Below, piece by piece: positions 33,077-44,777 of a DNA stretch of 64,000 nt (position 1 is the stretch's first letter; every line of letters begins with the position of its first letter). The position numbers were made by a program, and so were the translations under genes. Origin of the DNA: Candidatus Moraniibacteriota bacterium (GTDB lineage: Bacteria > Patescibacteriota > Minisyncoccia > Moranbacterales > UBA1568); contig JAAXXG010000002.1 of assembly GCA_013334575.1 (NCBI GenBank), positions 5,377 to 69,376 of the forward strand, given 5' to 3'. The notes under the pieces were generated by a model that searched no databases, was not told the DNA's origin, and worked only from the letters and a program-made list of their open reading frames with translations.

Positions 33077-33559
33077 TCAAAGCGAATTCAAAGCACCATG
33101 GATATCCGCCGCGAGGTCCCCGATATCCTCCTCCCGTATCGAGGTGATCTCGGACCAGCGTGGCGTTTCGGACTCGAGATCGTCCACAAGGTCGTCGCCT
33201 TTGAGTTTTTCCGAACGCACAGCGCATCGGAAAAAGAAAAGAAACGCGTGATAGGCCTCGTCGAGCGGGTCATAGTAGAAGAAGTTCTCCCGACAGAGGA
33301 CCAGTTCCCCGATCTCGACCTCGAGCCCCGTTTCCTCGCGGATCTCCCTCCTCAGGGCGTCTTCCATCCTTTCCCCGACTTCCACGCCGCCGCCCGGAAA
33401 CCACAGCTTGCCGTTCCCCTTGTTCCGCATCGTGACGACGCGGCCTCCGCTGACGATGAATCCGTAGACGCTCGGCCGGAAGAAGAACTTGTCACGCGGA
33501 ACCGGGACGATTTCCCCGCGACTGTTCTTACAGGATATCTGATTCATAGGAATGACCAT
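33077..33559 (-). CDS. Nudix hydrolase
   Basis: The Nudix box is GGGVEVGERMEDALRREIREETGLEVE. Confidence 0.8.
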   Translation of the reverse strand: MVIPMNQISCKNSRGEIVPVPRDKFFFRPSVYGFIVSGGRVVTMRNKGNGKLWFPGGGVEVGERMEDALRREIREETGLEVEIGELVLCRENFFYYDPLDEAYHAFLFFFRCAVRSEKLKGDDLVDDLESETPRWSEITSIREEDIGDLAADIHGALNSL

Positions 33560-33655
33560 TCACGCTATTTATATCAGATGGGGTTTGACGGCAACCCCGC
33601 TTCATAACTGGCGTTCATGCGTCCAAGGATATACTCGCGCACCGGGAAAAATGCT

Positions 33656-34192
33656 TCATGCCTGTTTCGATTTCGTCCGTTCCCCTACTGACCACGGGTG
33701 CAAATCTTCGTAGATGGCATCCTGATAATTATGGGGCTTGAGACGAAGAATCGCTTCGGCTATCGGCATGCAGTGCCGCTCGATCTCGCCGGTGTTTCCG
33801 GTTTTTGTATAGTGTTCGAAACTGTCTATCGTATCCGCCGTCTTGACGATCAGCGCGTCCTCGCCCACTTCAGCGCATCGTCGGACCATATCGTCTATCC
33901 GCTCACGTGAATCCTCTATGGTTCGGTCCTTCGAATTCGCTTGTACGATACGGAGCACGTCCTCTCCGAATCCGTCTCGCAGCGCCTCCTCGGACATATC
34001 CGACCATTCCAAGGCATCATGCAGCAATCCCGCGAGTACGATATTCCGTGAATACCCCTTCCCATACAGGAATACGCCGACCCGGATATCGTGAAACAGG
34101 ATCGGCTTCCGCGACCCCTCTTCCGATACCGGCATACGCTCTGCCAGTGCCCGTACCGCCCGCTCGAATTCGACATCTATCGAGGCATTCAT
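33656..34192 (-). CDS. HD-domain phosphohydrolase
   Basis: The H...HD...D pattern is present (GLLHDALEW). Confidence 0.7.
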   Translation of the reverse strand: MNASIDVEFERAVRALAERMPVSEEGSRKPILFHDIRVGVFLYGKGYSRNIVLAGLLHDALEWSDMSEEALRDGFGEDVLRIVQANSKDRTIEDSRERIDDMVRRCAEVGEDALIVKTADTIDSFEHYTKTGNTGEIERHCMPIAEAILRLKPHNYQDAIYEDLHPWSVGERTKSKQA

Positions 34193-34220
34193 AGTATTCG
34201 AATTTATAACTCAACCTTCT

Positions 34221-34292
34221 TTAAAGTGTCACGCCGAGGAACCAAAGGGTGAAGTCGAGCATCTTGGTGTCGGAGAGCTTCCCGACATTCAT
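34221..34292 (-). CDS. Repeat-family R1 copy A: conserved 23-aa ORF MNVGKLSDTKMLDFTLWFLGVTL, 29 nt upstream of the HD gene
   Basis: Nucleotide conservation with copies at 35988-36049 and 38038-38106, plus two decayed copies. The ATG is preceded by conserved GATATTCCCGGA. Confidence 0.35.
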   Translation of the reverse strand: MNVGKLSDTKMLDFTLWFLGVTL

Positions 34293-34506
34293 GCATCCGG
34301 GAATATCAGCGGGTTTCCGCATCGCACCAAACTCCATATATCCTGCTTCGTACATGTTTAATGCAAATGAGATGTATCGACTACCAATTTGCGATTCATT
34401 CTTCGAACAATTTTTAGATAGACCGTATGGCGCTAATTCCTTCCGAAATAAACTCATCTATCAATAGTATTATTATATACCATCTCATCAAGGGGAAGGT
34501 TTGCTT

Positions 34507-34539
34507 GAAAAAAGCAGGAGCACCGTTTGGAACTCCTGC
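34507..34539 (-). terminator. Terminator of the PRTase gene
   Basis: The stem GCAGGAG / CTCCTGC is followed by a T6 run on the minus strand. Confidence 0.5.
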
Positions 34540-34578
34540 ATTTCATGTAGAAACGAATAATCGAACGGAGGTCGTTGT

Positions 34579-35259
34579 TTACCTGGACGCGTCCACGCTT
34601 ACGCGACCAAGCGCCTGCAAGACCTCGTTATCACGGGTATCTTCGAAAGAATCGTAGAACATGCCGGTAGGAAAGTAATCACTTCTTGATCGGCGGCACG
34701 ATACTACCCTGTGCCCGTTGATAATATCGGGAAACCAATTCAAAATGGCCGGAATACCGATGACGATCTGCGATGCTCCGGCATACTCCATCGCATTAAT
34801 TGCGGCGATAATCGAGCGTCCCGTCACGGCACCATCGTCGATGAGCATCACCCGCTTTCCGATAACATCCTCGGGAATCATTCCGCCGAATATGGCGTGC
34901 TGGGAGGCGACGTTTTTGCGGCAATTTAGCACGATTGGATTTGCCAGAGACGCATCTTCCGCATCCCGAAAGAATGTTTCCGGTTCGAACGCACCGGTTT
35001 TCCATACCGTAGCGGTGCCGAAGCCAGTCAGAAATACGGCAACTTCACCGCCCTCAATTTCCTGCGACGGAATCCGGCAATCGTCGACTGAGAAGGAATA
35101 CAACGGCACATCAAGGAGACTCGCTACCTCTTTCGCGACGACGATTCCTCCACGAGCGAGTCCTACGACAATCGTATTTGTCGTCTCGGACGCTTCTCCG
35201 GCGGCGACAATACTGCTTGCCAATTGTCGCCCAGCATCAGTGCGGTTTTCGAAAATCAT
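34579..35259 (-). CDS. Type I phosphoribosyltransferase-family protein (COG1926-like)
   Basis: The PRPP-binding motif is VMLIDDGAVTGRS. The N-terminus is MIFENRTDAGRQLA. Confidence 0.7.
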   Translation of the reverse strand: MIFENRTDAGRQLASSIVAAGEASETTNTIVVGLARGGIVVAKEVASLLDVPLYSFSVDDCRIPSQEIEGGEVAVFLTGFGTATVWKTGAFEPETFFRDAEDASLANPIVLNCRKNVASQHAIFGGMIPEDVIGKRVMLIDDGAVTGRSIIAAINAMEYAGASQIVIGIPAILNWFPDIINGHRVVSCRRSRSDYFPTGMFYDSFEDTRDNEVLQALGRVSVDASR

Positions 35260-35367
35260 GGATATGTTGGTTTTGTTAGAAAAATGTTTAAGGCGTCGAC
35301 CGTTCGTCGACGCCTTGTTGAGACTTGATCCTACCGAGGCCGCGCAGGATTATCAGCAGTAGGAGTA

Positions 35368-35655
35368 TCAGCAGTAGGAGACGTGCTCTGACGCGGCATG
35401 ATTCCTGAGATCATCGAGGTCGATGCCGAAGTCGGCGGAGAGATTTTCGGCGCCCGCCGCAAGCGAGGAGTCGGCGATGACGATGGCGAGCAGCTGAATG
35501 CCAGGCATCTTGTGCGGCTCGGCATTCCCGCCCAGCAGCTTTGCCTTGATGATCTTGTCGGCGTGCATGATAGCTTCTTCCATGATGTCAGCCTCTTCCA
35601 TTTGCGCCTCTTTGATGGCGTCGCGCATGCCGCAGTGATTGATCGCATGACCCAT
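35368..35655 (-). CDS. Hypothetical protein (95 aa)
   Basis: The ATG at 35655 has SD GGGGGA 5 nt upstream. Sequence: MGHAINHCGMRDAIKEAQMEEADIM... I recognise no confident domain. Confidence 0.4.
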   Translation of the reverse strand: MGHAINHCGMRDAIKEAQMEEADIMEEAIMHADKIIKAKLLGGNAEPHKMPGIQLLAIVIADSSLAAGAENLSADFGIDLDDLRNHAASEHVSYC

Positions 35656-35848
35656 AGTATCCCCCGTTGTTTTGTGGTGATTATTGTTGTTGTAGTATAC
35701 GATCGTCACCAGATGATCGCATTCCTCATGAGCAGATTTTTCTCATCAGTCCTGGGGAATGCAATCATCGGCGTGCGCAGGCGGTGCCATACATCGAATC
35801 GGAAAGTTATTAAATGACTGAACATATTAGCAAATATAAACGACTCTG

Positions 35849-36049
35849 TCAAGAATTATATTTATATAGTCGATAATTAGGCTTATTTTTAACGTTTTTC
35901 TTAAACTTGGCCAAAGTTATGACTATTTCCAACGGGTATAAATACAGTATCGCAACGGCCTTATAGATCAAAAATCGTGGTACCATCGCGCCCAATGACC
36001 AGAGAGCAAAGTCAAGCATCTTGGTGCCGAAAAACCTCTCGACGTTCAT
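35849..36049 (-). CDS. Repeat-family R1 copy B, extended to 66 aa (MNVERFFGTKMLDFALWSLGAMV...)
   Basis: Same conserved element as above. Here there is no stop after codon 23, so the ORF continues into an AT-rich hydrophobic tail. Confidence 0.3.
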   Translation of the reverse strand: MNVERFFGTKMLDFALWSLGAMVPRFLIYKAVAILYLYPLEIVITLAKFKKNVKNKPNYRLYKYNS

Positions 36050-36079
36050 GTACTAAAAATATCATCGTGAATCGGAAAA

Positions 36080-36179
36080 GGTACCTGACCCCTTTTCTGG
36101 CTCATCAAATCAACTGGCGCGTACCGGCATAAACACATCGGGTCTTTTCTAGCTTGAGCCAGAAAAGAGGTCAGGCGCC
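36080..36179. repeat. Inverted pair of R2 repeats (GGTACCTGACCCCTTTTCTGGCTCA ... TGAGCCAGAAAAGAGGTCAGGCGCC), 24-25-bp arms about 50 nt apart
   Basis: Read directly. Related single copies lie at 38972-39005 and 39563-39589. Confidence 0.5.
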
Positions 36180-36338
36180 ATTTGAGAGTCTTCCCCTCCT
36201 CCGAAGAAGGTCAATTCCAGACCGAGAGCAGAAGCCATTCGTATGATCTACTCGTTTTCTCCGAACGGCGTCCCGCGATTCACATTTTCGAACCGTGTCT
36301 ATCAGTTTTCACTTGAAAAAAAATACCTAATCCACTTT

Positions 36339-37415
36339 CTAACTTGTTTGCTGGCACTTAAAATCGTTCTTTATCATATATTCCGATCCATCGCCATCCT
36401 TTTCTATATGCTTATCTGGATTGCGAAAAATGTCGATCATCGTTCTAATGAACCTCTCTTTCACTTCCTTGTGGATCTCGATCATTCTACGGACTTGAGC
36501 TTCATCCAAGGCGTCCATTATTTTATCGTCAATTCCGAATATTTCTTTTCCATAATCCTCCGAAAGGGCAAAATTCATTCCCTTTTCCACTTTCCTTGCA
36601 ATTTGATAGACGTATGTTTTCAAGCGGTCGTCTTCTTCGATCAATTTCGAAAGGACGATATCCCTGAAAGAAAACGTGTAGACATCCCCTTCGCCAAGGA
36701 TTTTTTCCGCCCGCGTCACGTCTTCCGTCGACAACTTCCCTTTCGTCGTATCAGACAGCAGCCCCGACCCCAATGGAGCCGAAAAATACATCCCCCCATA
36801 TTTTGCCGAAAAATCTTCGCCGAAGAGATCTTTAACTATCTCACGATTAATCAAATAGTATGCCTTATTAGGGGGGAGCAGTTTTTTGGAAAACAAATCC
36901 CTCCCTTCTCCTGCACCATCACTCCCTTTGCGGTCGTGATCGAGCATCTTCGACAAAGAGTCCTTATCCAGCACCTCCTGATCGACAATCTCATACAACA
37001 GTCGACCGGTCCTGCCATTGCCGTCGGAAAACGGATGAATCGCCTGAATACTATAGTAGAGTAACGTCGCTCTATCTTCATTGTCGCGCAAATTTTTCAA
37101 GGCATCAAAGGCTTCTTTCATCAGCGTATCCTTTTGTTCCGGATATGGAGGCAGATATGCCACGCCTTGAATACCGTAGGAAAGTTCAGTATTTGCTCCG
37201 TCGATACCCCTCCTATTTGTCGGCAATTCCCTGATGATTCCGTTGAGTCTTGAAACGAAATTCTTAAAATCGTCATATGACACATCGAAGATCCATTCGT
37301 CGAACTTTTCCTCCGAGCGCTTCATTTCAGAGAATCCGGATTTTTCTAAAAAATTGAAGACCATTTCTCCGGTATTCATCCTTTCCGCATTCCCTTGCAT
37401 CATTTCCAACGACAT
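36339..37415 (-). CDS. fic: Fic/DOC-family protein (AMPylator-type fold)
   Basis: The canonical Fic motif HPFSDGNGRTGR is present. Size is 358 aa with low GC. Confidence 0.85.
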   Translation of the reverse strand: MSLEMMQGNAERMNTGEMVFNFLEKSGFSEMKRSEEKFDEWIFDVSYDDFKNFVSRLNGIIRELPTNRRGIDGANTELSYGIQGVAYLPPYPEQKDTLMKEAFDALKNLRDNEDRATLLYYSIQAIHPFSDGNGRTGRLLYEIVDQEVLDKDSLSKMLDHDRKGSDGAGEGRDLFSKKLLPPNKAYYLINREIVKDLFGEDFSAKYGGMYFSAPLGSGLLSDTTKGKLSTEDVTRAEKILGEGDVYTFSFRDIVLSKLIEEDDRLKTYVYQIARKVEKGMNFALSEDYGKEIFGIDDKIMDALDEAQVRRMIEIHKEVKERFIRTMIDIFRNPDKHIEKDGDGSEYMIKNDFKCQQTS

Positions 37416-37514
37416 AGGCTTGTCTTAATCCGGACGAAACGAACGCGAATCAAAAAAGTGCCTTACGACTATTCTGGCTCCGATTTTTCCAAAAACTGCA
37501 CCAAGAGACGGAGC

Positions 37515-37555
37515 CGGACATCTTGGCATCGGAACACTTCGCGGCGTTCGACTCT
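37515..37555 (-). repeat. Decayed R1 copy (no ATG) between Nudix and Fic
   Basis: GAGAGTCGAACGCCGCGAAGTGTTCCGATGCCAAGATG aligns at about 75% to the R1 core. Confidence 0.4.
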
Positions 37556-37984
37556 CTATGACGATAGAGCTCTTGCGATACGAGCCGCTTTTCCCACGGC
37601 GGTTCGGAAGTTGTCGTTAAGCCAATGGATGTCGGCAAGGCTGTCGGATCCGACCCACCGCGCCTCCGCGTGTTCGTCGCTCATGTGAATAGTATCCTCT
37701 TCAACGGCGCGGCAGAGATAGAATACGGTATATTTCGGAGGATCCTCGATGCCCCAGCGGGCCGCATGAACCGGCGTGACGATATCGATATCGAGGCCGG
37801 TTTCCTCCTTTACTTCGCGTCGAAGCCCCTCTTCCGGTTCGTCTTCCGCTTCGAGCCTTCCACCGGGAAGCATCCACATCTCCGTCGTGAATTCCTCGTT
37901 CAGCGGCAACCGAAGGATCAGTAACTCGCCCCGTTCGTTCATGATGACTCCGTATTCCCCGACATTACACGTCAATCTCGACAT
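37556..37984 (-). CDS. Nudix hydrolase (second copy)
   Basis: The Nudix box is GGRLEAEDEPEEGLRREVKEETGLDIDI. The start is ATG 37984 (MSRL) or 37942 (MNERG, better SD). The ORF track's 38059 start overlaps R1 copy C. Confidence 0.75.
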   Translation of the reverse strand: MSRLTCNVGEYGVIMNERGELLILRLPLNEEFTTEMWMLPGGRLEAEDEPEEGLRREVKEETGLDIDIVTPVHAARWGIEDPPKYTVFYLCRAVEEDTIHMSDEHAEARWVGSDSLADIHWLNDNFRTAVGKAARIARALSS

Positions 37985-38034
37985 ACTGCTTTTCGATTTC
38001 CATATCAGATCGCAAACGATGAATTTATTATACC

Positions 38035-38106
38035 TCACATGATCGCGCCGAGGGACCACAGGGCAAAATCGAGCATCTTGGTGTCGGAGAACTTCTCGAC
38101 GTTCAT
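38035..38106 (-). CDS. Repeat-family R1 copy C: MNVEKFSDTKMLDFALWSLGAIM
   Basis: It has the same conserved upstream box GATATTCCCGGACAC-ATG and lies 50-90 nt upstream of the second Nudix gene. Confidence 0.35.
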   Translation of the reverse strand: MNVEKFSDTKMLDFALWSLGAIM

Positions 38107-38162
38107 GTGTCCGGGAATATCATTTCGTACAAAAAATTGCCTAGCCTTTTTCGACTTCACAT

Positions 38163-38194
38163 AAAAACCCGTCACGGCTTATCGCCATGACGGG
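38163..38194 (-). terminator. Terminator of the ITPase gene
   Basis: The stem CCCGTCA / TGACGGG has a nested GGC/GCC and a T5 run on the minus strand. Confidence 0.55.
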
Positions 38195-38225
38195 AACCGA
38201 TTTCTTGTCCAAGAAAACTACCGAA

Positions 38226-38765
38226 TCAGAATCCTCGCAGGAAGGCTTCGTAAAACACCTGTTTAAGCCCCTCCGTCAGGATCTTCCGCCTGGAAACCCT
38301 GCAGCCGGACATCACGATATGCGGATCGGTAGGATCTCCGCCGAAGCGCTCGGAAAATACCGACCCGACGGTCGTTGTCCCGAAGCCGCGCTCCTCGGCT
38401 TCCGCGACGCATGCGTCGGGAAATCGCATCCCTTCGGATATCGAAACGTATTCTCTCCCGTCCGGCAACAGCAGAACGATGATAGCGACATCGATTGGAA
38501 ATCGCCTGCCGTCAGCTCCCCCGAATCGGACGATTCCGTTCTCGATACCTATTCCGATGACGTCAGACCCGGTCGCCGCAGCCCCCTTCGCCCGGTTCGA
38601 TGCGCCACGATAGATTTCCTCCAGGCCTTCCGGCTGCGCGTTTACCAATGACGGGATATCCTTGCCCGACACGTCAGCCAGTATCCCCATACTGACGCAG
38701 ACCGCCGAAACCGGACCGACCTTGTGTTCGCTTTCCGAGCCGACAACGATATGTTTTCGTTGCAT
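38226..38765 (-). CDS. YjjX/DUF84-family inosine/xanthosine triphosphatase-like protein
   Basis: VNAQPEGLEEIYRGASNRAKGA aligns by eye to the YjjX [22 protein letters not shown] region, and the C-terminus is similar. Confidence 0.6.
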   Translation of the reverse strand: MQRKHIVVGSESEHKVGPVSAVCVSMGILADVSGKDIPSLVNAQPEGLEEIYRGASNRAKGAAATGSDVIGIGIENGIVRFGGADGRRFPIDVAIIVLLLPDGREYVSISEGMRFPDACVAEAEERGFGTTTVGSVFSERFGGDPTDPHIVMSGCRVSRRKILTEGLKQVFYEAFLRGF

Positions 38766-39591: not shown

Positions 39592-40362
39592 TTATTTTAC
39601 TTTTTGTAGTGTTTGTTTTTCTCTTAAGCTTTCGCCAATTTTTTTAATAATACTTAACTCAGCGGAATCGTCTAGATCTCCGGATACCATATATAATCTT
39701 GGCATCATTCCAAGAAGTAATCTCTGAAAAGTGCTTGGGGCCTGTAGCTTATCCACTTTTATGTAAACAACGTACCCGCTTCCAAAGTATATCTGGTAAA
39801 ATCGTACTCCATCGATTCTAATTGGTCGTGGATCTAATAGGATTTCCCTAGCAAATTTATTTTTTTCGATGTCGAACTTCCTTATGAAAATAGTGAATGA
39901 TTGATTAGAATCCTCGACGTTATTATCAATCATATCCTTTAGTACTGTTTGATATGGACCCAGCACAACATGTTGATAAAATATATTCTCAGATATATCT
40001 GCTCGAAAAAGGACGGAGCAAAAGAACATTTTTAGTTTTACAAAATCAACTTCTTGCTCAAATACCCATCCAACCGGGTAGGCTCCGCCTTCTTCAAAGA
40101 TTGCTCTAAAGCTAGATTGATTTTGTAACAATATCTTTTGTCCATAATCATCAAGGGGCTTAAACTTTTCTTCGCAGGACAAACACAAAATCTCCTGATC
40201 ATAGATACCTATTCTGCTCTTTTTTGTATGTTCATCCTTATTGCTTGATACAACTAAAAGATGGTCACTTTCCTTTTTTATGGCTCGGAAAAAACTCTCA
40301 GGAATTACATGAGATTTGACTAATTTTTCAAATTCTCGACTACACATCTTGCAAGTCTTCAT
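39592..40362 (-). CDS. Putative HNH/His-Me-finger endonuclease-like protein
   Basis: The ATG at 40362 gives MKTCKMCSREFEKLVKSHVIPESFF... A second CxxC pair (CLSCEEKF) follows. It is very AT-rich, and the assignment is tentative. The ORF track's 301-aa version overlaps the dnaK 3' end. Confidence 0.35.
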   Translation of the reverse strand: MKTCKMCSREFEKLVKSHVIPESFFRAIKKESDHLLVVSSNKDEHTKKSRIGIYDQEILCLSCEEKFKPLDDYGQKILLQNQSSFRAIFEEGGAYPVGWVFEQEVDFVKLKMFFCSVLFRADISENIFYQHVVLGPYQTVLKDMIDNNVEDSNQSFTIFIRKFDIEKNKFAREILLDPRPIRIDGVRFYQIYFGSGYVVYIKVDKLQAPSTFQRLLLGMMPRLYMVSGDLDDSAELSIIKKIGESLREKQTLQKVK

Positions 40363-40370
40363 AAATATAT

Positions 40371-40400
40371 GAAGAGCGGAGGTATAACACCTCCGCTCTT
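40371..40400 (-). terminator. dnaK terminator
   Basis: A 12-bp perfect stem GAAGAGCGGAGG / CCTCCGCTCTTC lies 9 nt after the dnaK stop and is followed by a T-rich tract on the minus strand. Confidence 0.6.
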
Positions 40401-40408
40401 CGTAAACC

Positions 40409-42337
<1,929 letters not shown>

Positions 42338-42525: not shown

Positions 42526-42552
42526 TTAGCACTCGTCAAGTTCGAGTGCTAA
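42526..42552. promoter_or_regulatory. CIRCE operator (TTAGCACTC-N9-GAGTGCTAA) overlapping a TTGACG-17-TATACT promoter for dnaK
   Basis: The inverted repeat is a perfect match to the consensus. On the minus strand the -35 lies inside CIRCE and the -10 is at 42511-42516. Confidence 0.85.
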
Positions 42553-42589: not shown

Positions 42590-42922
42590 TCAGAACAGCC
42601 GCTGTCCGTTTGGCACGTCCTTATCCGGAACCGCAAGGACGACACGTCCGTTTTCATCCGGAAATCCGAGCGTAAGCACTTCGGATACGAACGGCCCGAT
42701 CTGCTTCGGCGAAAAGTTCACGACACCCATCACACGCTTCCCGACCAGCTCCTCCTTGGAATAGAGCGAGGTTATCTGTACCGACGAGCGTTTCATCCCG
42801 ACCTCGGACCCGAAATCGATCGTCAGCTTGTAGGCGGGCTTCCTCGCTTCCGGAAATTCTTCGGCAGACACGATAGTTCCACTCCGGATGTCCACCTTAT
42901 CGAAATCTTCGTACGTGATCAT
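42590..42922 (-). CDS. csaA: tRNA-binding-domain protein (CsaA/Trbp111/EMAP-like OB fold)
   Basis: MITYEDFDKVDIRSGTIVSAEEFPEARKPAYKLTIDFG matches the MetRS-C/CsaA OB-fold pattern. Confidence 0.7.
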   Translation of the reverse strand: MITYEDFDKVDIRSGTIVSAEEFPEARKPAYKLTIDFGSEVGMKRSSVQITSLYSKEELVGKRVMGVVNFSPKQIGPFVSEVLTLGFPDENGRVVLAVPDKDVPNGQRLF

Positions 42923-42937
42923 ATTCGATTCGCTACT

Positions 42938-43828
42938 CTAGGCGACGCTCACCTTCGCCGCCGCGATCACCTTGTCCCCCATCATGTAGCCCTTGCGATG
43001 CACAGTGGTGATCTTCTGTACGTTTCCTTCCCTGACCTCCCCGTCCGTACCGATCGCCTCGTGCCGGGACGGATCGAAGTCGTCACCGACCTTCGGCTCA
43101 ATGAGCGCAACGCCGTTCTGCGAGAGCACGTCCTCGAACTGCTTCGCTATGTAGCCGATACCGGTCACCCACGGGCTGTCCTTGGCCTCTTCCGGGACAT
43201 GTGCGGCCGCCGCATGGAAGTTGTCGAGTACCGGTATCAAATCAAGCACGAGCCGCTCCACCTTGTACGCGCCCATCTCGGCACCCTCGGCATCGCGTCG
43301 TTTGCGGTAGTTCTCGAAATCCGCCAGGCACCGCTTCCAGCCGGACAAGGCGTCGCGATTCTCCAGATGCTCCTTCGCAAGGAGGACGGTTCGCCGCTTG
43401 TCGGCCTCGTAGCCCTTGTCTTCGAAGGTCTCCGCGGCCTCGTCGAGCGTCATCCACTCGAAGCCGTCATGTTCGGCCGGGTCGGTCTTCACCCCGGCAT
43501 CGTGGGTAAAGGCGACGAAGCGGAGGGCTTGGAGCGCGTCGCCCTCATCACTCGTGAGATGGCGGAAGAACGGAAGCGGCACAATATCACGGACGGCAAG
43601 TCCGGTCTCTTCCCTTACTTCGCGGACGATCGTCTCTTCCGGCGTCTCGTCCGCATCCACGTGTCCGCCGGGAAGGTCGCGCTTGCCCGATCCGCGCCGA
43701 TCACCCTTAGCCCGCGTCAGGACGAGGACGCGCCCGTCCGGACCGATGACGGCGGCCTTGACCGTGATGCGGAAGATCCCGTCCGTCGGCTTCCCGTCCG
43801 TCATTTCGTGCGTTTTCTTTCCGGTCAT
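42938..43828 (-). CDS. grpE: GrpE nucleotide-exchange factor whose N-terminal region is a Nudix hydrolase domain
   Basis: Residues about 30-150 carry the Nudix box GGHVDADETPEETIVREVREETGL. Residues about 150-296 are GrpE (WKRCLADFENYRKRRDAE...KITTVHRKGYMMGDKVIAAAKVSVA). It reads as a single continuous frame. Confidence 0.8.
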   Translation of the reverse strand: MTGKKTHEMTDGKPTDGIFRITVKAAVIGPDGRVLVLTRAKGDRRGSGKRDLPGGHVDADETPEETIVREVREETGLAVRDIVPLPFFRHLTSDEGDALQALRFVAFTHDAGVKTDPAEHDGFEWMTLDEAAETFEDKGYEADKRRTVLLAKEHLENRDALSGWKRCLADFENYRKRRDAEGAEMGAYKVERLVLDLIPVLDNFHAAAAHVPEEAKDSPWVTGIGYIAKQFEDVLSQNGVALIEPKVGDDFDPSRHEAIGTDGEVREGNVQKITTVHRKGYMMGDKVIAAAKVSVA

Positions 43829-43854: not shown

Positions 43855-43924
43855 GTCATTCCCGCGAAGGCGGGAATCCTGGCGAAAAAGAGAGGGTCAA
43901 GATTCCCGCCTTCGCGGGAATGAC
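43855..43924. repeat. Inverted pair of dRS3-like repeats GTCATTCCCGCGAAGGCGGGAATC ... GATTCCCGCCTTCGCGGGAATGAC
   Basis: Read directly in the hrcA-grpE intergenic. The plus-strand translation gives the familiar ...PAFAGMT... repeat-derived peptide. Confidence 0.6.
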
Positions 43925-43941: not shown

Positions 43942-44685
43942 TTACAACATCGGATGGATGATGATCGCGATCGCGAGCGAGGAGCCGAGCAGCTTCTTCA
44001 TGTGCTCGAGAAGCGATTTGTTCCGCGCGTACTGCATCCGCTTCGGGCCGATGATGGCAAGGATTCCCTTCCCCTCCTCGGTCTCGTACGGAGCGACCAT
44101 CATCGAGCAGTTCGAGATCTCGGCGATCGGGTTCTCCTTGCCGATGAAGATCTTGGTACCGCCGTCCGCCACCTCGCGAAGGATGAGGTCGAACTTCTCG
44201 TCAAGCGAGTCGAGCGCCTCGACCATGCGGCAGAGCTCGTCGAGCTCACGGAACTCCGGGTTCTCGAGGAGCTCCTTCATGCCGAAATCGTAGAGCTCCT
44301 GCCGATCGGCGATACCGGTCACGGCGAGGTTGCCCGAGAGCGCGGAGAGAAGCTTGGCGGTCGAGCGACCGAGGCGGGCGTGCTTGGCGCGCAGCGAGAG
44401 AAGTTCCTTCTGGAGCCGCTTCTGCTCGGCGACGGAGAGCGCCTCGTCGGGCATCACCTCCTCGACATAGAAGCGGAAGCCCTCGTCGGTCGGAATGCGA
44501 CCGGCCGAGGTGTGCGGCTGATAGAGATAGCCCGCCTTCTCGAGCGCGAGCATATCGTTGCGGAGGGTCGCCGAGGACACGTCGAACCCGTACCGCTCGA
44601 TGAGCAGCTGGGATCCGACCGGGATTGCGGTCTTGGTATATTCCTCGACGATGGCGGCGAGGACCTGACGCTGGCGTTCGTTCAT
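43942..44685 (-). CDS. hrcA: Heat-inducible transcription repressor HrcA
   Basis: The ORF begins MNERQRQVLAAIVEEYTKTAIPVGSQLL. Confidence 0.85.
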   Translation of the reverse strand: MNERQRQVLAAIVEEYTKTAIPVGSQLLIERYGFDVSSATLRNDMLALEKAGYLYQPHTSAGRIPTDEGFRFYVEEVMPDEALSVAEQKRLQKELLSLRAKHARLGRSTAKLLSALSGNLAVTGIADRQELYDFGMKELLENPEFRELDELCRMVEALDSLDEKFDLILREVADGGTKIFIGKENPIAEISNCSMMVAPYETEEGKGILAIIGPKRMQYARNKSLLEHMKKLLGSSLAIAIIIHPML

Positions 44686-44750: not shown

Positions 44751-44777
44751 TTAGCACTCGTCAAGAAAGAGTGCTAA
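44751..44777. promoter_or_regulatory. Second CIRCE operator overlapping the TTGACG-18-TATACT promoter for hrcA
   Basis: TTAGCACTC-GTCAAGAAA-GAGTGCTAA is a perfect match. The -10 is at 44735-44740 on the minus strand. Confidence 0.85.

What the first reader, a model, noticed from the sequence alone, without database searches (positions are those of the whole stretch)
42938..43828. GrpE with an N-terminal Nudix hydrolase domain inside the hrcA-grpE-csaA-dnaK operon
The single 296-aa frame carries a complete Nudix box (GGHVDADETPEETIVREVREETGL) in its first half and a GrpE dimerisation/beta-sheet region in its second half. It replaces the usual disordered N-tail and long helix of GrpE. A nucleotide-hydrolysing domain fused to the Hsp70 nucleotide-exchange factor is not an arrangement I can recall being characterised. 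It could couple ADP/ADP-ribose or dinucleotide hydrolysis to DnaK cycling.
Basis: partly seen in the sequence, partly recalled or inferred. Interest (0 to 1): 0.6.

Follow-up and report, generated by a model that had tools for sequence, protein, structure and literature searches.

The report
GrpE co-chaperone carrying a Nudix enzyme
In a group of ultra-small (Patescibacteria/Moranbacteria-type) bacteria, the heat-shock co-chaperone GrpE has swapped its floppy N-terminal tail for an apparently active Nudix nucleotide-hydrolysing enzyme; this recurring but unstudied variant is a natural experiment on what that tail does.

Summary
Window 42938..43828 (minus strand) is one uninterrupted 296-aa ORF with a Pfam NUDIX domain (aa 20-135, E 1e-20) and a GrpE domain (aa 153-296, E 2e-34).

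It is not an assembly artefact:
- About 100 clusters at 90% identity share the architecture, as do at least 62 representatives at 50% identity, down to ~30% identity.
- Nearly all labelled sources are Moranbacteria/Patescibacteria.
- The gene always sits in the grpE slot between hrcA and dnaK.
- Here the operon has two perfect CIRCE operators overlapping sigma-70-type promoters.

The Nudix REUxEE core is essentially invariant, so catalysis is probably retained.

The long GrpE helix is kept (AlphaFold helix 139-209, pLDDT 91.5). Only the disordered, charged N-terminal tail is replaced.

Close unfused relatives in identical synteny are interspersed among fused ones, which suggests repeated loss or gain and a modular role.

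The Nudix domain sits at the end of the stalk far from the DnaK nucleotide cleft, so direct ADP channelling is unlikely.

The substrate is unknown: the domain is MutT-like but reaches no equivalog cut-off. No literature was found. Verdict: a new, uncharacterised variant of a known kind, of moderate interest.

The parts
42938..43828 (-). Nudix-GrpE fusion gene (296 aa plus stop codon)
   Evidence: Continuous ORF. Pfam NUDIX and GrpE both above curated cut-offs. Identical protein P0001 and about 100 homologous clusters with both domains.
43775..43828 (-). Short, poorly conserved, probably disordered N-terminal tail (aa 1-18)
   Evidence: pLDDT 46-65 in the first two 10-residue blocks. Mean pairwise identity 23%.
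43424..43774 (-). Nudix hydrolase domain (aa 19-135), alpha/beta/alpha Nudix fold
   Evidence: PF00293 E 1.3e-20. The model shows strands and helices of the Nudix fold at pLDDT above 90. Foldseek best hits are MutT-like 3GRN (E 4.9e-12, TM to target 0.74), 3N77, 4DYW, 3HHJ, 3R03 and NUDT15.
43598..43666 (-). Nudix box G55-L77 (GHVDADETPEETIVREVREETGL), the metal-binding and catalytic motif
   Evidence: Read from the sequence. R69, E70 and E73 occur in 78/78, E74 in 77/78, E61 in 75/78 and G76 in 74/78 family members. 58/78 have canonical x7 spacing, 15/78 an x8 variant and 5 carry single substitutions.
43202..43414 (-). Long GrpE stalk helix running into the first helix of the four-helix bundle (aa 139-209), including the DnaK-contacting ADFENYRKRR patch (aa 169-178)
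   Evidence: One helix 139-209 in the model. R166, A169 and N173 are invariant and positions 175-177 are basic in 91-100%. No indel between aa 138 and 211 in 78 sequences.
42941..43201 (-). Second bundle helix (aa 219-237) and C-terminal beta-wing (aa 240-296) of GrpE, the part that opens the DnaK nucleotide cleft
   Evidence: Secondary structure of the model. Alignments to GrpE structures 4ANI, 3A6M, 8GB3 and 1DKG. G223, G248 and G280 are invariant.
43942..44685 (-). hrcA, the CIRCE-binding heat-shock repressor and first gene of the operon
   Evidence: TIGR00331 hrcA 219.6 bits (cut-off 197.2). PF01628.
44751..44777 (.). Perfect CIRCE operator upstream of hrcA, overlapping a sigma-70-type promoter (TTGACG-N18-TATACT, 44764 to 44735 on the minus strand)
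   Evidence: Zero mismatches to TTAGCACTC-N9-GAGTGCTAA, with 0.01 expected by chance. Promoter scan.
42590..42922 (-). csaA (tRNA_bind-fold chaperone), between the fusion gene and dnaK; relatives have hsp20 in this slot
   Evidence: NF007495 182.7 bits and TIGR02222 CsaA 157 bits, both above cut-off. hsp20 occupies this slot in L081, L082, L084, L085 and L087.
42526..42552 (.). Second perfect CIRCE operator, overlapping a second promoter (TTGACG-N17-TATACT, 42539 to 42511 on the minus strand) in front of dnaK
40409..42337 (-). dnaK (Hsp70), the partner of GrpE; followed by a 14-bp-stem terminator at 40401 to 40371
   Evidence: PF00012 848 bits. Terminator scan.

Best explanation
This is the organism's regular, HrcA/CIRCE-controlled GrpE nucleotide-exchange factor. 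The usual disordered, charged N-terminal tail has been replaced by a catalytically competent MutT-like Nudix pyrophosphohydrolase domain. The GrpE part is complete: stalk helix, four-helix bundle and beta-wing. It should dimerise through the stalk and open the DnaK nucleotide cleft as in other bacteria. The two Nudix domains of the dimer are held on a fixed-length helix at the far tip of the stalk, on the side of the DnaK substrate-binding domain. There they hydrolyse a nucleoside-diphosphate-X compound, most probably a non-canonical or damaged (d)NTP or another stress-related nucleotide. The fusion mainly ensures heat-shock-regulated, stoichiometric, dimeric and DnaK-proximal delivery of a house-cleaning enzyme. 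It does not channel ADP from DnaK. Shown: the architecture, its conservation, its operon and operators, the fold, and the intact catalytic motif. Inferred: dimer geometry, enzymatic activity, substrate class, and that the coupling is modular rather than mechanistic.
For: Both domains pass curated cut-offs. The model is confident (pLDDT 91.5) and shows Nudix fold, then helix 139-209, then bundle, then beta-wing. GrpE hallmark positions are invariant: the R166/A169/N173 patch, the LPVLDNF motif, G223, and basic residues at 175-177. The fusion sits in the grpE slot of a conserved hrcA-grpE-(hsp20/csaA)-dnaK block, in relatives of about 35% identity and in an 82%-identical tandem-Nudix relative. 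It is the only GrpE in the 64-kb window. Two perfect CIRCE operators overlap two promoters. The Nudix REUxEE core is invariant in 77-78 of 78 sequences that diverge to 31% identity, and both boxes are intact in Nudix-Nudix-GrpE relatives, so the enzymatic function is under purifying selection. The nearest structures and HMMs are small MutT-type NTP pyrophosphohydrolases. Modularity: unfused GrpEs in identical synteny are up to 74-83% identical in the GrpE domain to particular fused proteins, and closer to them than to other unfused ones. They are interspersed in the GrpE tree (Fitch minimum 18 changes). Seven of them lie inside a 21-tip clade whose fused members share one Nudix signature. The same window encodes other house-cleaning enzymes: two free Nudix proteins, a DUF84 NTPase and an HD hydrolase. 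Geometry against channelling: the Nudix domain ends about 30 helical residues before the DnaK-contact patch. [quoted passage not shown]
Against: No enzymatic or exchange activity was or could be measured. No substrate can be assigned, since all NCBIfam Nudix equivalogs are far below cut-off. The stalk between Nudix and the DnaK patch has no indel in 78 sequences, and the fusion has persisted across deep divergence. Both facts could point to tighter structural integration than simple co-delivery. The organism already has at least two free Nudix paralogues, so a purely house-cleaning role for a third, tethered copy is not obviously needed. The disordered tail it replaces is functionally important in E. 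coli and M. tuberculosis (PMC12915176; PMC10803776), so its loss should have consequences that this explanation leaves open. The loss/gain phylogeny rests on an NJ tree of 136 columns without bootstrap. Whether a second grpE exists elsewhere in these genomes was not checked.
Confidence: 0.6

Rival explanations
1. Integrated regulator. The Nudix domain is a working part of the DnaK cycle. It sits where the pseudo-substrate tail normally acts, next to the DnaK substrate-binding domain. It either takes over substrate release sterically or by docking, or it acts as a nucleotide/alarmone-binding sensor. In the sensor case its occupancy or dimerisation would stabilise or destabilise the thermosensing coiled coil, tuning exchange and substrate release to the nucleotide state of the cell.
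For: It replaces exactly the tail that drives substrate release in E. coli (the 17-IIM-19 motif binds the SBD groove, PMC12915176) and in M. tuberculosis (deltaN42 blocks release). The remaining tail is short (about 18 aa) and unconserved. The connector is only 4 residues, and the stalk from aa 138 to 211 has a fixed length in 78 sequences. The two halves co-vary (Pearson 0.58 against a permutation maximum of 0.09). The fusion is maintained, and even duplicated, in many lineages.
Against: Closely related lineages in identical synteny do without the domain, so it is dispensable for a working GrpE. The strict conservation of catalytic residues argues for turnover rather than mere binding. No structural model of the complex is available and no DnaK co-variation was tested. 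Spearman correlation between the halves is only 0.29, and nearest neighbours agree in 16 of 78 cases.
Confidence: 0.22
2. The Nudix domain hydrolyses ADP, ADP-ribose or Ap4A at DnaK, either removing the released product or removing an inhibitory ATP analogue, and so biases the Hsp70 cycle.
For: Ap4A accumulates under heat and oxidative stress and was reported to bind DnaK, GroEL and ClpB (review PMC7705103). Some Nudix enzymes are Ap4A hydrolases, and CT771 (4MPO) appears among the structural neighbours. The gene is heat-shock regulated.
Against: The active site lies at the opposite end of a helix of about 100 A from the nucleotide cleft, so there can be no channelling. RppH/Ap4A-type, NudC-type and ADP-ribose-type HMMs score far below cut-off: 31 against 116 bits, 25 against 158 bits, and 31 against 403 bits. 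The best matches are MutT-type NTP pyrophosphohydrolases. The review itself notes that Ap4A may only act as an ATP analogue on these chaperones. The domain has been lost repeatedly.
Confidence: 0.1
3. Artefact. A frameshift, read-through or chimeric assembly joined a separate Nudix gene to grpE.
For: None found. The possibility arises only because the window is a single assembled sequence.
Against: The same continuous architecture occurs in about 100 independent clusters from NCBI, JGI, ENA and Logan assemblies and in at least 62 representatives at 50% identity. Composition is continuous across the junction. The model is confident and contiguous. In relatives hrcA is followed directly by the fused ORF.
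Confidence: 0.01

Closest known systems
Canonical bacterial GrpE (E. coli 1DKG, G. kaustophilus 4ANI, T. thermophilus 3A6M, M. tuberculosis 8GB3)
   Same: It has the stalk helix, four-helix bundle and beta-wing. It has the ADFENY(K/R)KR and LPVLDNF motifs and the conserved Gly in the bundle helix. It sits between hrcA and dnaK under CIRCE control.
   Different: The disordered N-terminus is described as part of the conserved architecture (review PMC12987570) and is needed for substrate release. Here a folded 13-kDa enzyme domain replaces it, and only about 18 unconserved residues precede that domain.
Small MutT-type Nudix NTP pyrophosphohydrolases (3GRN, 3N77, 4DYW, 3HHJ, E. coli MutT 1MUT, human NUDT15)
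   Same: Single-domain Nudix fold of about 115 aa, a complete Nudix box, and 25-30% identity with TM-score to target 0.7-0.8.
   Different: It is covalently attached to a coiled-coil co-chaperone and therefore presumably displayed as a pair. It reaches no equivalog cut-off (MutT TIGR00586 38.8 against 97.9 bits), so its substrate is unknown.
Unfused GrpE of sister Patescibacteria lineages (P0084, P0101, P0103, P0104, P0105 and others)
   Same: Same syntenic block (DnaB-CysS-CorA-YidD ... hrcA-grpE-hsp20-dnaK). The query's GrpE domain is up to 57% identical to an unfused one (P0091), and some unfused proteins are 74-83% identical to particular fused ones.
   Different: They carry a 35-70 aa charged low-complexity tail instead of the Nudix domain, with no Nudix relic detectable.
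Nudix-Nudix-GrpE relatives (P0002 at 82% identity, P0008, P0025, P0121, P0122; 445-450 aa)
   Same: Same family, same operon position, and both Nudix boxes intact.
   Different: The Nudix domain is duplicated in tandem. The window's protein has a single copy.
Anabaena All4144, a GrpE with an added helix-turn-helix domain (bioRxiv 10.1101/2025.04.14.648684, abstract seen)
   Same: A precedent for a GrpE that carries an extra folded domain with a second activity.
   Different: The extra domain there binds DNA and is not an enzyme. The lineage is unrelated, and I did not read beyond the abstract.

Membership tests
GrpE nucleotide-exchange factor (PF01025) | Sequence match to the family profile above the curated cut-off | tested here: met
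   118.8 bits against 25.8, model positions 23-164 of 165. phmmer hits to the GrpE structures 4ANI, 3A6M, 8GB3 and 1DKG.
GrpE nucleotide-exchange factor (PF01025) | Architecture: long stalk helix, four-helix-bundle helices and C-terminal beta-wing | tested here: met
   The AlphaFold model shows H139-209, H219-237 and strands 240-295, with pLDDT mostly above 90.
GrpE nucleotide-exchange factor (PF01025) | Disordered N-terminal tail preceding the stalk (part of the architecture as reviewed in PMC12987570) | tested here: not met
   It is replaced by a folded Nudix domain. Only about 18 low-confidence residues remain at the N-terminus.
GrpE nucleotide-exchange factor (PF01025) | Genomic association with dnaK and hrcA under CIRCE control | tested here: met
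   hrcA-fusion-csaA-dnaK with two perfect CIRCE operators. The same slot is used in relatives.
GrpE nucleotide-exchange factor (PF01025) | Homodimerisation and acceleration of ADP release from DnaK | not testable with these tools
   This needs biochemistry or a multimer model. Only monomer prediction was available.
NCBIfam GrpE equivalogs (PRK14140-PRK14164 series) | Whole-protein score above the curated equivalog cut-off | tested here: not met
   The best are NF010743 at 89.5 against 186 bits and NF010738 at 83.5 against 137 bits. The sequence is divergent, as expected for Patescibacteria.
Nudix hydrolase superfamily (PF00293) | Profile match above cut-off and a Nudix box GX5EX7REUXEEXGU | tested here: met
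   74.2 bits against 21.1. The box spans G55-L77, and the core is invariant in the family.
Nudix hydrolase superfamily (PF00293) | Alpha/beta/alpha Nudix fold | tested here: met
   Foldseek against PDB gives 3GRN E 4.9e-12 and TM to target 0.74-0.80 for several MutT-like structures.
Nudix hydrolase superfamily (PF00293) | Mg2+/Mn2+-dependent pyrophosphohydrolase activity | not testable with these tools
   Inferred only from conservation of the metal-binding glutamates.
MutT 8-oxo-dGTP diphosphatase (TIGR00586 / PRK10776) | Equivalog score above cut-off | tested here: not met
   38.8 against 97.9 bits and 39.4 against 148 bits. These are the closest named family but do not establish membership.
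NudC NAD(H) diphosphatase (the name IMG attaches to one member) | Equivalog score; the SQPWPFPxS motif and zinc-binding domain (the last two from my own knowledge) | tested here: not met
   NF001299 scores 24.6 against 158 bits and matches only the box region. No SQPWPFP string occurs in the sequence (read).
RppH / Ap4A-type Nudix | Equivalog score above cut-off | tested here: not met
   NF001938 scores 31.3 against 116 bits and NF001937 25.4 against 139 bits.
ADP-ribose pyrophosphatase-type Nudix | Equivalog score; a proline about 15-16 residues after the box (own knowledge) | tested here: not met
   There are only partial hits to the Nudix half of the bifunctional NadM-Nudix models (NF003790, 31 against 403 bits). 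Residues 92-93 are T and S, not P (read). The marker rule is recalled from memory, so this is weak evidence.

The most novel reading that the evidence does not exclude
The Nudix domain is an integral, ligand-responsive module of the Hsp70 cycle. It is held rigidly at the SBD-proximal tip of the GrpE coiled coil. It replaces the pseudo-substrate tail and couples binding or hydrolysis of a stress nucleotide (for example Ap4A, an oxidised NTP or an alarmone) to stalk stability, substrate release or exchange rate. That would make it the first enzyme-gated nucleotide-exchange factor.
Probability: 0.2. Interest if true: 0.8.

Novelty: new variant of a known kind. Interest (0 to 1): 0.55.

Why it matters
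GrpE architecture is treated as universal, and the role of its disordered N-terminal tail in substrate release is an active question with papers in 2024-2026. This family offers paired natural variants: closely related GrpEs in the same operon, one form with a charged tail and the other with a folded, apparently active enzyme. That makes the question directly testable with recombinant proteins. If the Nudix domain influences exchange or release, it would be a new way of linking nucleotide or alarmone chemistry to chaperone cycling. If it does not, it remains a clean example of how genome-reduced Patescibacteria bundle a house-cleaning enzyme into the heat-shock regulon. It also shows that current annotation ('nucleotide exchange factor GrpE') hides a second enzymatic function in a hundred or more protein clusters.

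Tried and rejected
1. The genome-contig scan with the family alignment used the universal GrpE motif A[DE]F[ED]NY[KR]K as its pattern and was swamped by ordinary GrpEs. Only L001 and L002 were fusions, so it gave no taxonomic survey and no test for a second grpE per genome.

2. Foldseek against afdb50 was unavailable, so I could not list UniProt/AFDB entries with this architecture.

3. My first Nudix-box regex was too strict and reported only 41/78 intact boxes. Inspection showed an x8 spacing variant and polar residues at the last position.

4. Grouping fusions by a single residue after GG was too crude to define Nudix subclades. Only the 'GGR' clade was informative.

5. A search for Nudix relics in the tails of unfused relatives found nothing (all E above 0.4). 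The mode of loss or gain remains open.

6. Substrate assignment by NCBIfam equivalogs, phmmer against PDB and Foldseek gave only generic MutT-like neighbours, mostly structural-genomics entries.

7. I considered the intergenic 27-bp hairpin as an operon-specific attenuator or thermosensor. I rejected that because the same 24-mer occurs in at least 120 unrelated metagenome contigs and in none of the related loci.

8. I considered the neighbouring Fic-motif protein as a possible functional partner (AMPylation of Hsp70). I rejected this as a working idea because Nudix enzymes cleave pyrophosphate bonds, not the phosphodiester of an AMPylated side chain (own knowledge), and I did not test for any conserved linkage.

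Full report
OBSERVATION. Window 42938..43828 holds one continuous 296-aa ORF on the minus strand (DNA read). Pfam places a NUDIX domain at aa 20-135 (74.2 bits, cut-off 21.1) and a GrpE domain at aa 153-296 (118.8 bits, cut-off 25.8, model positions 23-164 of 165). The neighbours on the same strand are hrcA (43942..44685; TIGR00331 above cut-off), csaA (42590..42922; CsaA/tRNA-binding models above cut-off) and dnaK (40409..42337). GC and GC3 are continuous across the domain junction and match hrcA and dnaK.

NOT AN ARTEFACT, NOT A SINGLETON. A search of 5.8 billion clustered proteins returned about 100 clusters (90% identity) of roughly 290-310 aa that carry both PF00293 and PF01025, at 30-100% identity to the query. 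Where a source names them, the label is only 'nucleotide exchange factor GrpE' from Candidatus Moranbacteria, Moraniibacteriota or Patescibacteria. An exhaustive HMM search of 1.84 billion 50%-identity representatives found at least 62 representatives matching the profile end to end within the best 150, and four further listed hits proved to be fusions. One IMG entry is named 'GrpE / NADH pyrophosphatase NudC (nudix...)', so pipelines have seen the dual nature. Labels such as 'Candidatus Fimivivens' (a Clostridia genus) and 'uncultured Bdellovibrionales' sit on short or MAG contigs and are probably binning or labelling errors; I did not verify this. Three literature searches and a term search within the 2025 review of GrpE-like factors found no mention of a Nudix-GrpE protein.

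ANATOMY. AlphaFold2 with the 78-sequence family alignment gives a confident model (mean pLDDT 91.5, pTM 0.68). The layout is as follows:
- an unstructured N-terminus of about 18 residues;
- a Nudix alpha/beta/alpha fold (aa 19-134);
- a four-residue connector;
- one uninterrupted helix from aa 139 to 209;
- a second helix (aa 219-237);
- a beta-rich C-terminal domain (aa 240-296).

The long GrpE stalk is therefore present. This agrees with the Pfam match starting at model position 23 and with phmmer alignments that begin at residue 25 of E. coli GrpE (1DKG) and residue 15 of T. thermophilus GrpE (3A6M). Aligning fused proteins with their closest unfused relatives shows what was displaced: a 35-70 aa charged, low-complexity N-terminal tail. 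It replaces the disordered tail.

CONSERVATION. Across 78 fusion proteins (31-75% identical to the query), G54, G55, R69, E70 and E73 are invariant. E74 occurs in 77/78, E61 in 75/78 and G76 in 74/78. Fifty-eight have the canonical x7 spacing, 15 form a group with a one-residue insertion (x8), and 5 carry single substitutions. Mean pairwise identity is 35% in the Nudix half, 50% in the GrpE half and 29% in the connector and N-terminal stalk. In the GrpE half the ADFENY(K/R)KR patch (R166, A169 and N173 invariant; basic residues at 175-177 in 91-100%), the LPVLDNF motif, G223, G248 and G280 are conserved. [quoted passage not shown] There is no indel between aa 138 and 211 in any of the 78 sequences, so the helix joining the Nudix domain to the DnaK-contact patch has a fixed length. 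Some relatives are Nudix-Nudix-GrpE, including P0002, which is 82% identical to the query. In most of them both boxes are fully intact, and in P0121 and P0025 the N-terminal copy still keeps the RE..EE core.

GENOMIC AND REGULATORY CONTEXT. Two perfect CIRCE inverted repeats (TTAGCACTC-N9-GAGTGCTAA; 0.01 expected by chance) lie at 44751-44777, upstream of hrcA, and at 42526-42552, between csaA and dnaK. Each overlaps a sigma-70-type promoter of identical design, TTGACG-N17/18-TATACT, on the minus strand. A 14-bp-stem terminator follows dnaK. The fusion gene is therefore in an HrcA-repressed heat-shock operon. In relatives of about 35% identity (P0066 on a 1.18-Mb contig; P0088 in GCA_052034935.1) and in the tandem-Nudix P0002, the order is hrcA, fusion, hsp20, dnaK, with CorA, CysS and YidD upstream as in the window. 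The fusion is the only GrpE in the 64-kb window. Whether another exists elsewhere in the genome could not be checked.

FUSED AND UNFUSED FORMS ALTERNATE. Unfused GrpEs of 172-192 aa (P0084, P0101, P0103, P0104) lie in the same syntenic block. In each, hrcA abuts grpE and no Nudix gene is nearby. In an NJ tree of the GrpE domain (193 sequences, 136 columns) unfused proteins are scattered among fused ones, with a Fitch minimum of 18 state changes. Independently of the tree, several unfused proteins are much closer to a particular fused protein than to any unfused one: P0177 74% against 54%, P0183 74% against 56%, P0168 70% against 56%, and P0105 83% against 76%. The query's own GrpE domain is as little as 28% identical to some fused members. 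A 21-tip clade whose fused members share the 'GGR' Nudix signature contains 7 unfused proteins. The tails of unfused proteins show no Nudix relic. Distances in the two halves are correlated (Pearson 0.58; maximum of 999 permutations 0.09), but weakly by rank (Spearman 0.29; the same nearest neighbour in 16 of 78). My reading is that the domain has been lost, or exchanged, repeatedly within one lineage. This is inference from a short alignment without bootstrap support.

WHAT THE NUDIX HALF IS. By sequence and fold it resembles small MutT-type NTP pyrophosphohydrolases: 3GRN, 3N77, 4DYW, 3HHJ, 3R03, E. coli MutT and NUDT15. The best NCBIfam models are PRK08999, MutT and pyrimidine dNTP diphosphatase, all far below their cut-offs. 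NudC-, RppH/Ap4A- and ADP-ribose-type models score lower still. No substrate can be assigned. The window also encodes two free-standing MutT-like Nudix proteins (33077..33559 and 37556..38059), which are only 30-39% identical to the fused domain around the box. It further encodes a DUF84 ITPase/XTPase-like NTPase and a small HD hydrolase.

HOW IT MOST LIKELY WORKS. Shown: a complete GrpE with conserved DnaK-contact features, under CIRCE control, in the grpE slot, with a structurally intact Nudix domain whose catalytic residues are under purifying selection. From established knowledge (PMC12987570; PMC10803776; PMC12915176):
- GrpE dimerises through the stalk;
- the beta-wing of one protomer opens the nucleotide cleft;
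- the disordered tails bind the SBD substrate groove to promote release.

Inference: the two Nudix domains sit side by side at the SBD-proximal tip of the stalk. That is about 30 helical residues (roughly 45 A) below the DnaK-contact patch, and about 100 A along the helix from its C-terminal end. This makes channelling of ADP from the cleft implausible. I therefore favour a modular bifunctional protein: a normal exchange factor that also delivers a heat-shock-induced, dimerically displayed nucleotide-sanitising enzyme (confidence 0.6). The repeated loss of the domain and the presence of other house-cleaning genes fit this.

The main rival (0.22) is that the domain is an integrated part of the cycle, substituting for the pseudo-substrate tail or acting as a nucleotide-sensing cap on the thermosensing coiled coil. 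The fixed-length connection, the persistence and duplication of the domain, and the known importance of the tail it replaces speak for it. Its dispensability in close relatives speaks against it. Artefact is effectively excluded (0.01).

COMPARISON AND NOVELTY. The protein is a member of the GrpE family and of the Nudix superfamily by every sequence and fold criterion tested. It fails the 'disordered N-terminus' feature of canonical GrpE architecture, and it fails every specific Nudix equivalog. The closest precedent for a GrpE with an extra folded domain is Anabaena All4144 (HTH domain; abstract only). I rate it a new variant of a known kind: widespread in sequence databases and noticed by at least one annotation pipeline, but not described or characterised in the literature I could search.

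VERDICT. Real, recurrent, heat-shock-regulated Nudix-GrpE fusion. Interest is 0.55: a specialist would find an enzyme in place of the GrpE tail surprising, and the paired fused and unfused relatives make the tail's function testable. A mundane co-expression fusion remains the most likely reading.

Noticed in passing
window 43855-43924 (hrcA/fusion intergenic region): A 27-nt inverted repeat (96% complementary, 16-nt spacer) folds as RNA into a perfect long hairpin (-57.8 kcal/mol, z = -7.5) that ends about 26 nt before the fusion's start codon. Its 24-nt core GTCATTCCCGCGAAGGCGGGAATC has at least 120 exact matches in unrelated metagenome contigs (GC 0.32-0.68), 8 of them as inverted pairs 41-156 nt apart, with a conserved core of about 29 nt (tcGTCATTCCCGCGAAGGCGGGAATCCAG). 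It is absent from all related grpE loci. It looks like a dispersed REP/MITE-like palindromic element. From memory it resembles the ATTCCC-N8-GGGAAT dRS3 repeats of Neisseria. Its effect on hrcA/grpE expression is unknown.
   Followed up: partly
window 33077-38765, minus strand: A cluster of nucleotide house-cleaning and signalling genes lies downstream of dnaK. It holds a DUF84 ITPase/XTPase-like NTPase (38226..38765), a free MutT-like Nudix (37556..38059), a PRTase-like protein (34579..35259, assigned only from reading a VMLIDDGAVTGRS motif in the translation, no HMM run), a small HD RelA/SpoT-type hydrolase (33656..34192) and a second free Nudix (33077..33559).
   Followed up: partly
window 36339-37415, minus strand: A 358-aa protein carries a canonical Fic motif (HPFSDGNGRTGR), with only weak NCBIfam Fic hits, about 3 kb from dnaK. 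It is a possible protein AMPylase. No link to the chaperone operon was tested.
   Followed up: no
window 42590-42922 compared with L081, L082, L084, L085, L087: In this genome the slot between grpE and dnaK holds csaA (tRNA_bind-fold chaperone). Most fused and unfused relatives examined have an hsp20 gene there, while L088 has small unannotated ORFs.
   Followed up: partly
window 43942-44685; L081-L089: HrcA is short here (247 aa against a 338-position TIGR00331 model, matched in two stretches). HrcA is 246-252 aa in most related loci (269 aa in L083), which suggests a lineage-wide deletion in the middle of the repressor.
   Followed up: no
P0002, P0008, P0025, P0121, P0122, P0265; locus L087 8001-9350: Tandem Nudix-Nudix-GrpE versions (443-450 aa) occur, including one that is 82% identical to the query. 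Most have two fully intact Nudix boxes. Free-standing double and triple Nudix proteins (P0208, P0221, P0235, P0246, P0263; Kitasatospora/Streptomyces P0108-P0112) are the nearest non-GrpE relatives of the Nudix half.
   Followed up: partly
family alignment A1 (P0057, P0060, P0063, P0064, P0066, P0069, P0073, P0077, P0082, P0087, P0089, P0090, P0093-P0095): Fifteen of the 78 fusions have a non-canonical Nudix box with one extra residue between the first Glu and the RE pair (GX5EX8REUXEE), while all catalytic residues are kept.
   Followed up: no
window 39592-40497, minus strand: A 301-aa ORF overlaps the 3' end of dnaK by 89 nt, so its true start is probably an internal Met near MKTCKMCSREF. 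It has no Pfam hit and its function is unknown.
   Followed up: no
P0010 (HWQ59520.1), L002, L003: Moranbacteria-type fused or closely related GrpE genes sit on contigs labelled 'Candidatus Fimivivens sp.' (Clostridia) and 'uncultured Bdellovibrionales'. These are probably mis-binned or mislabelled MAG contigs.
   Followed up: no
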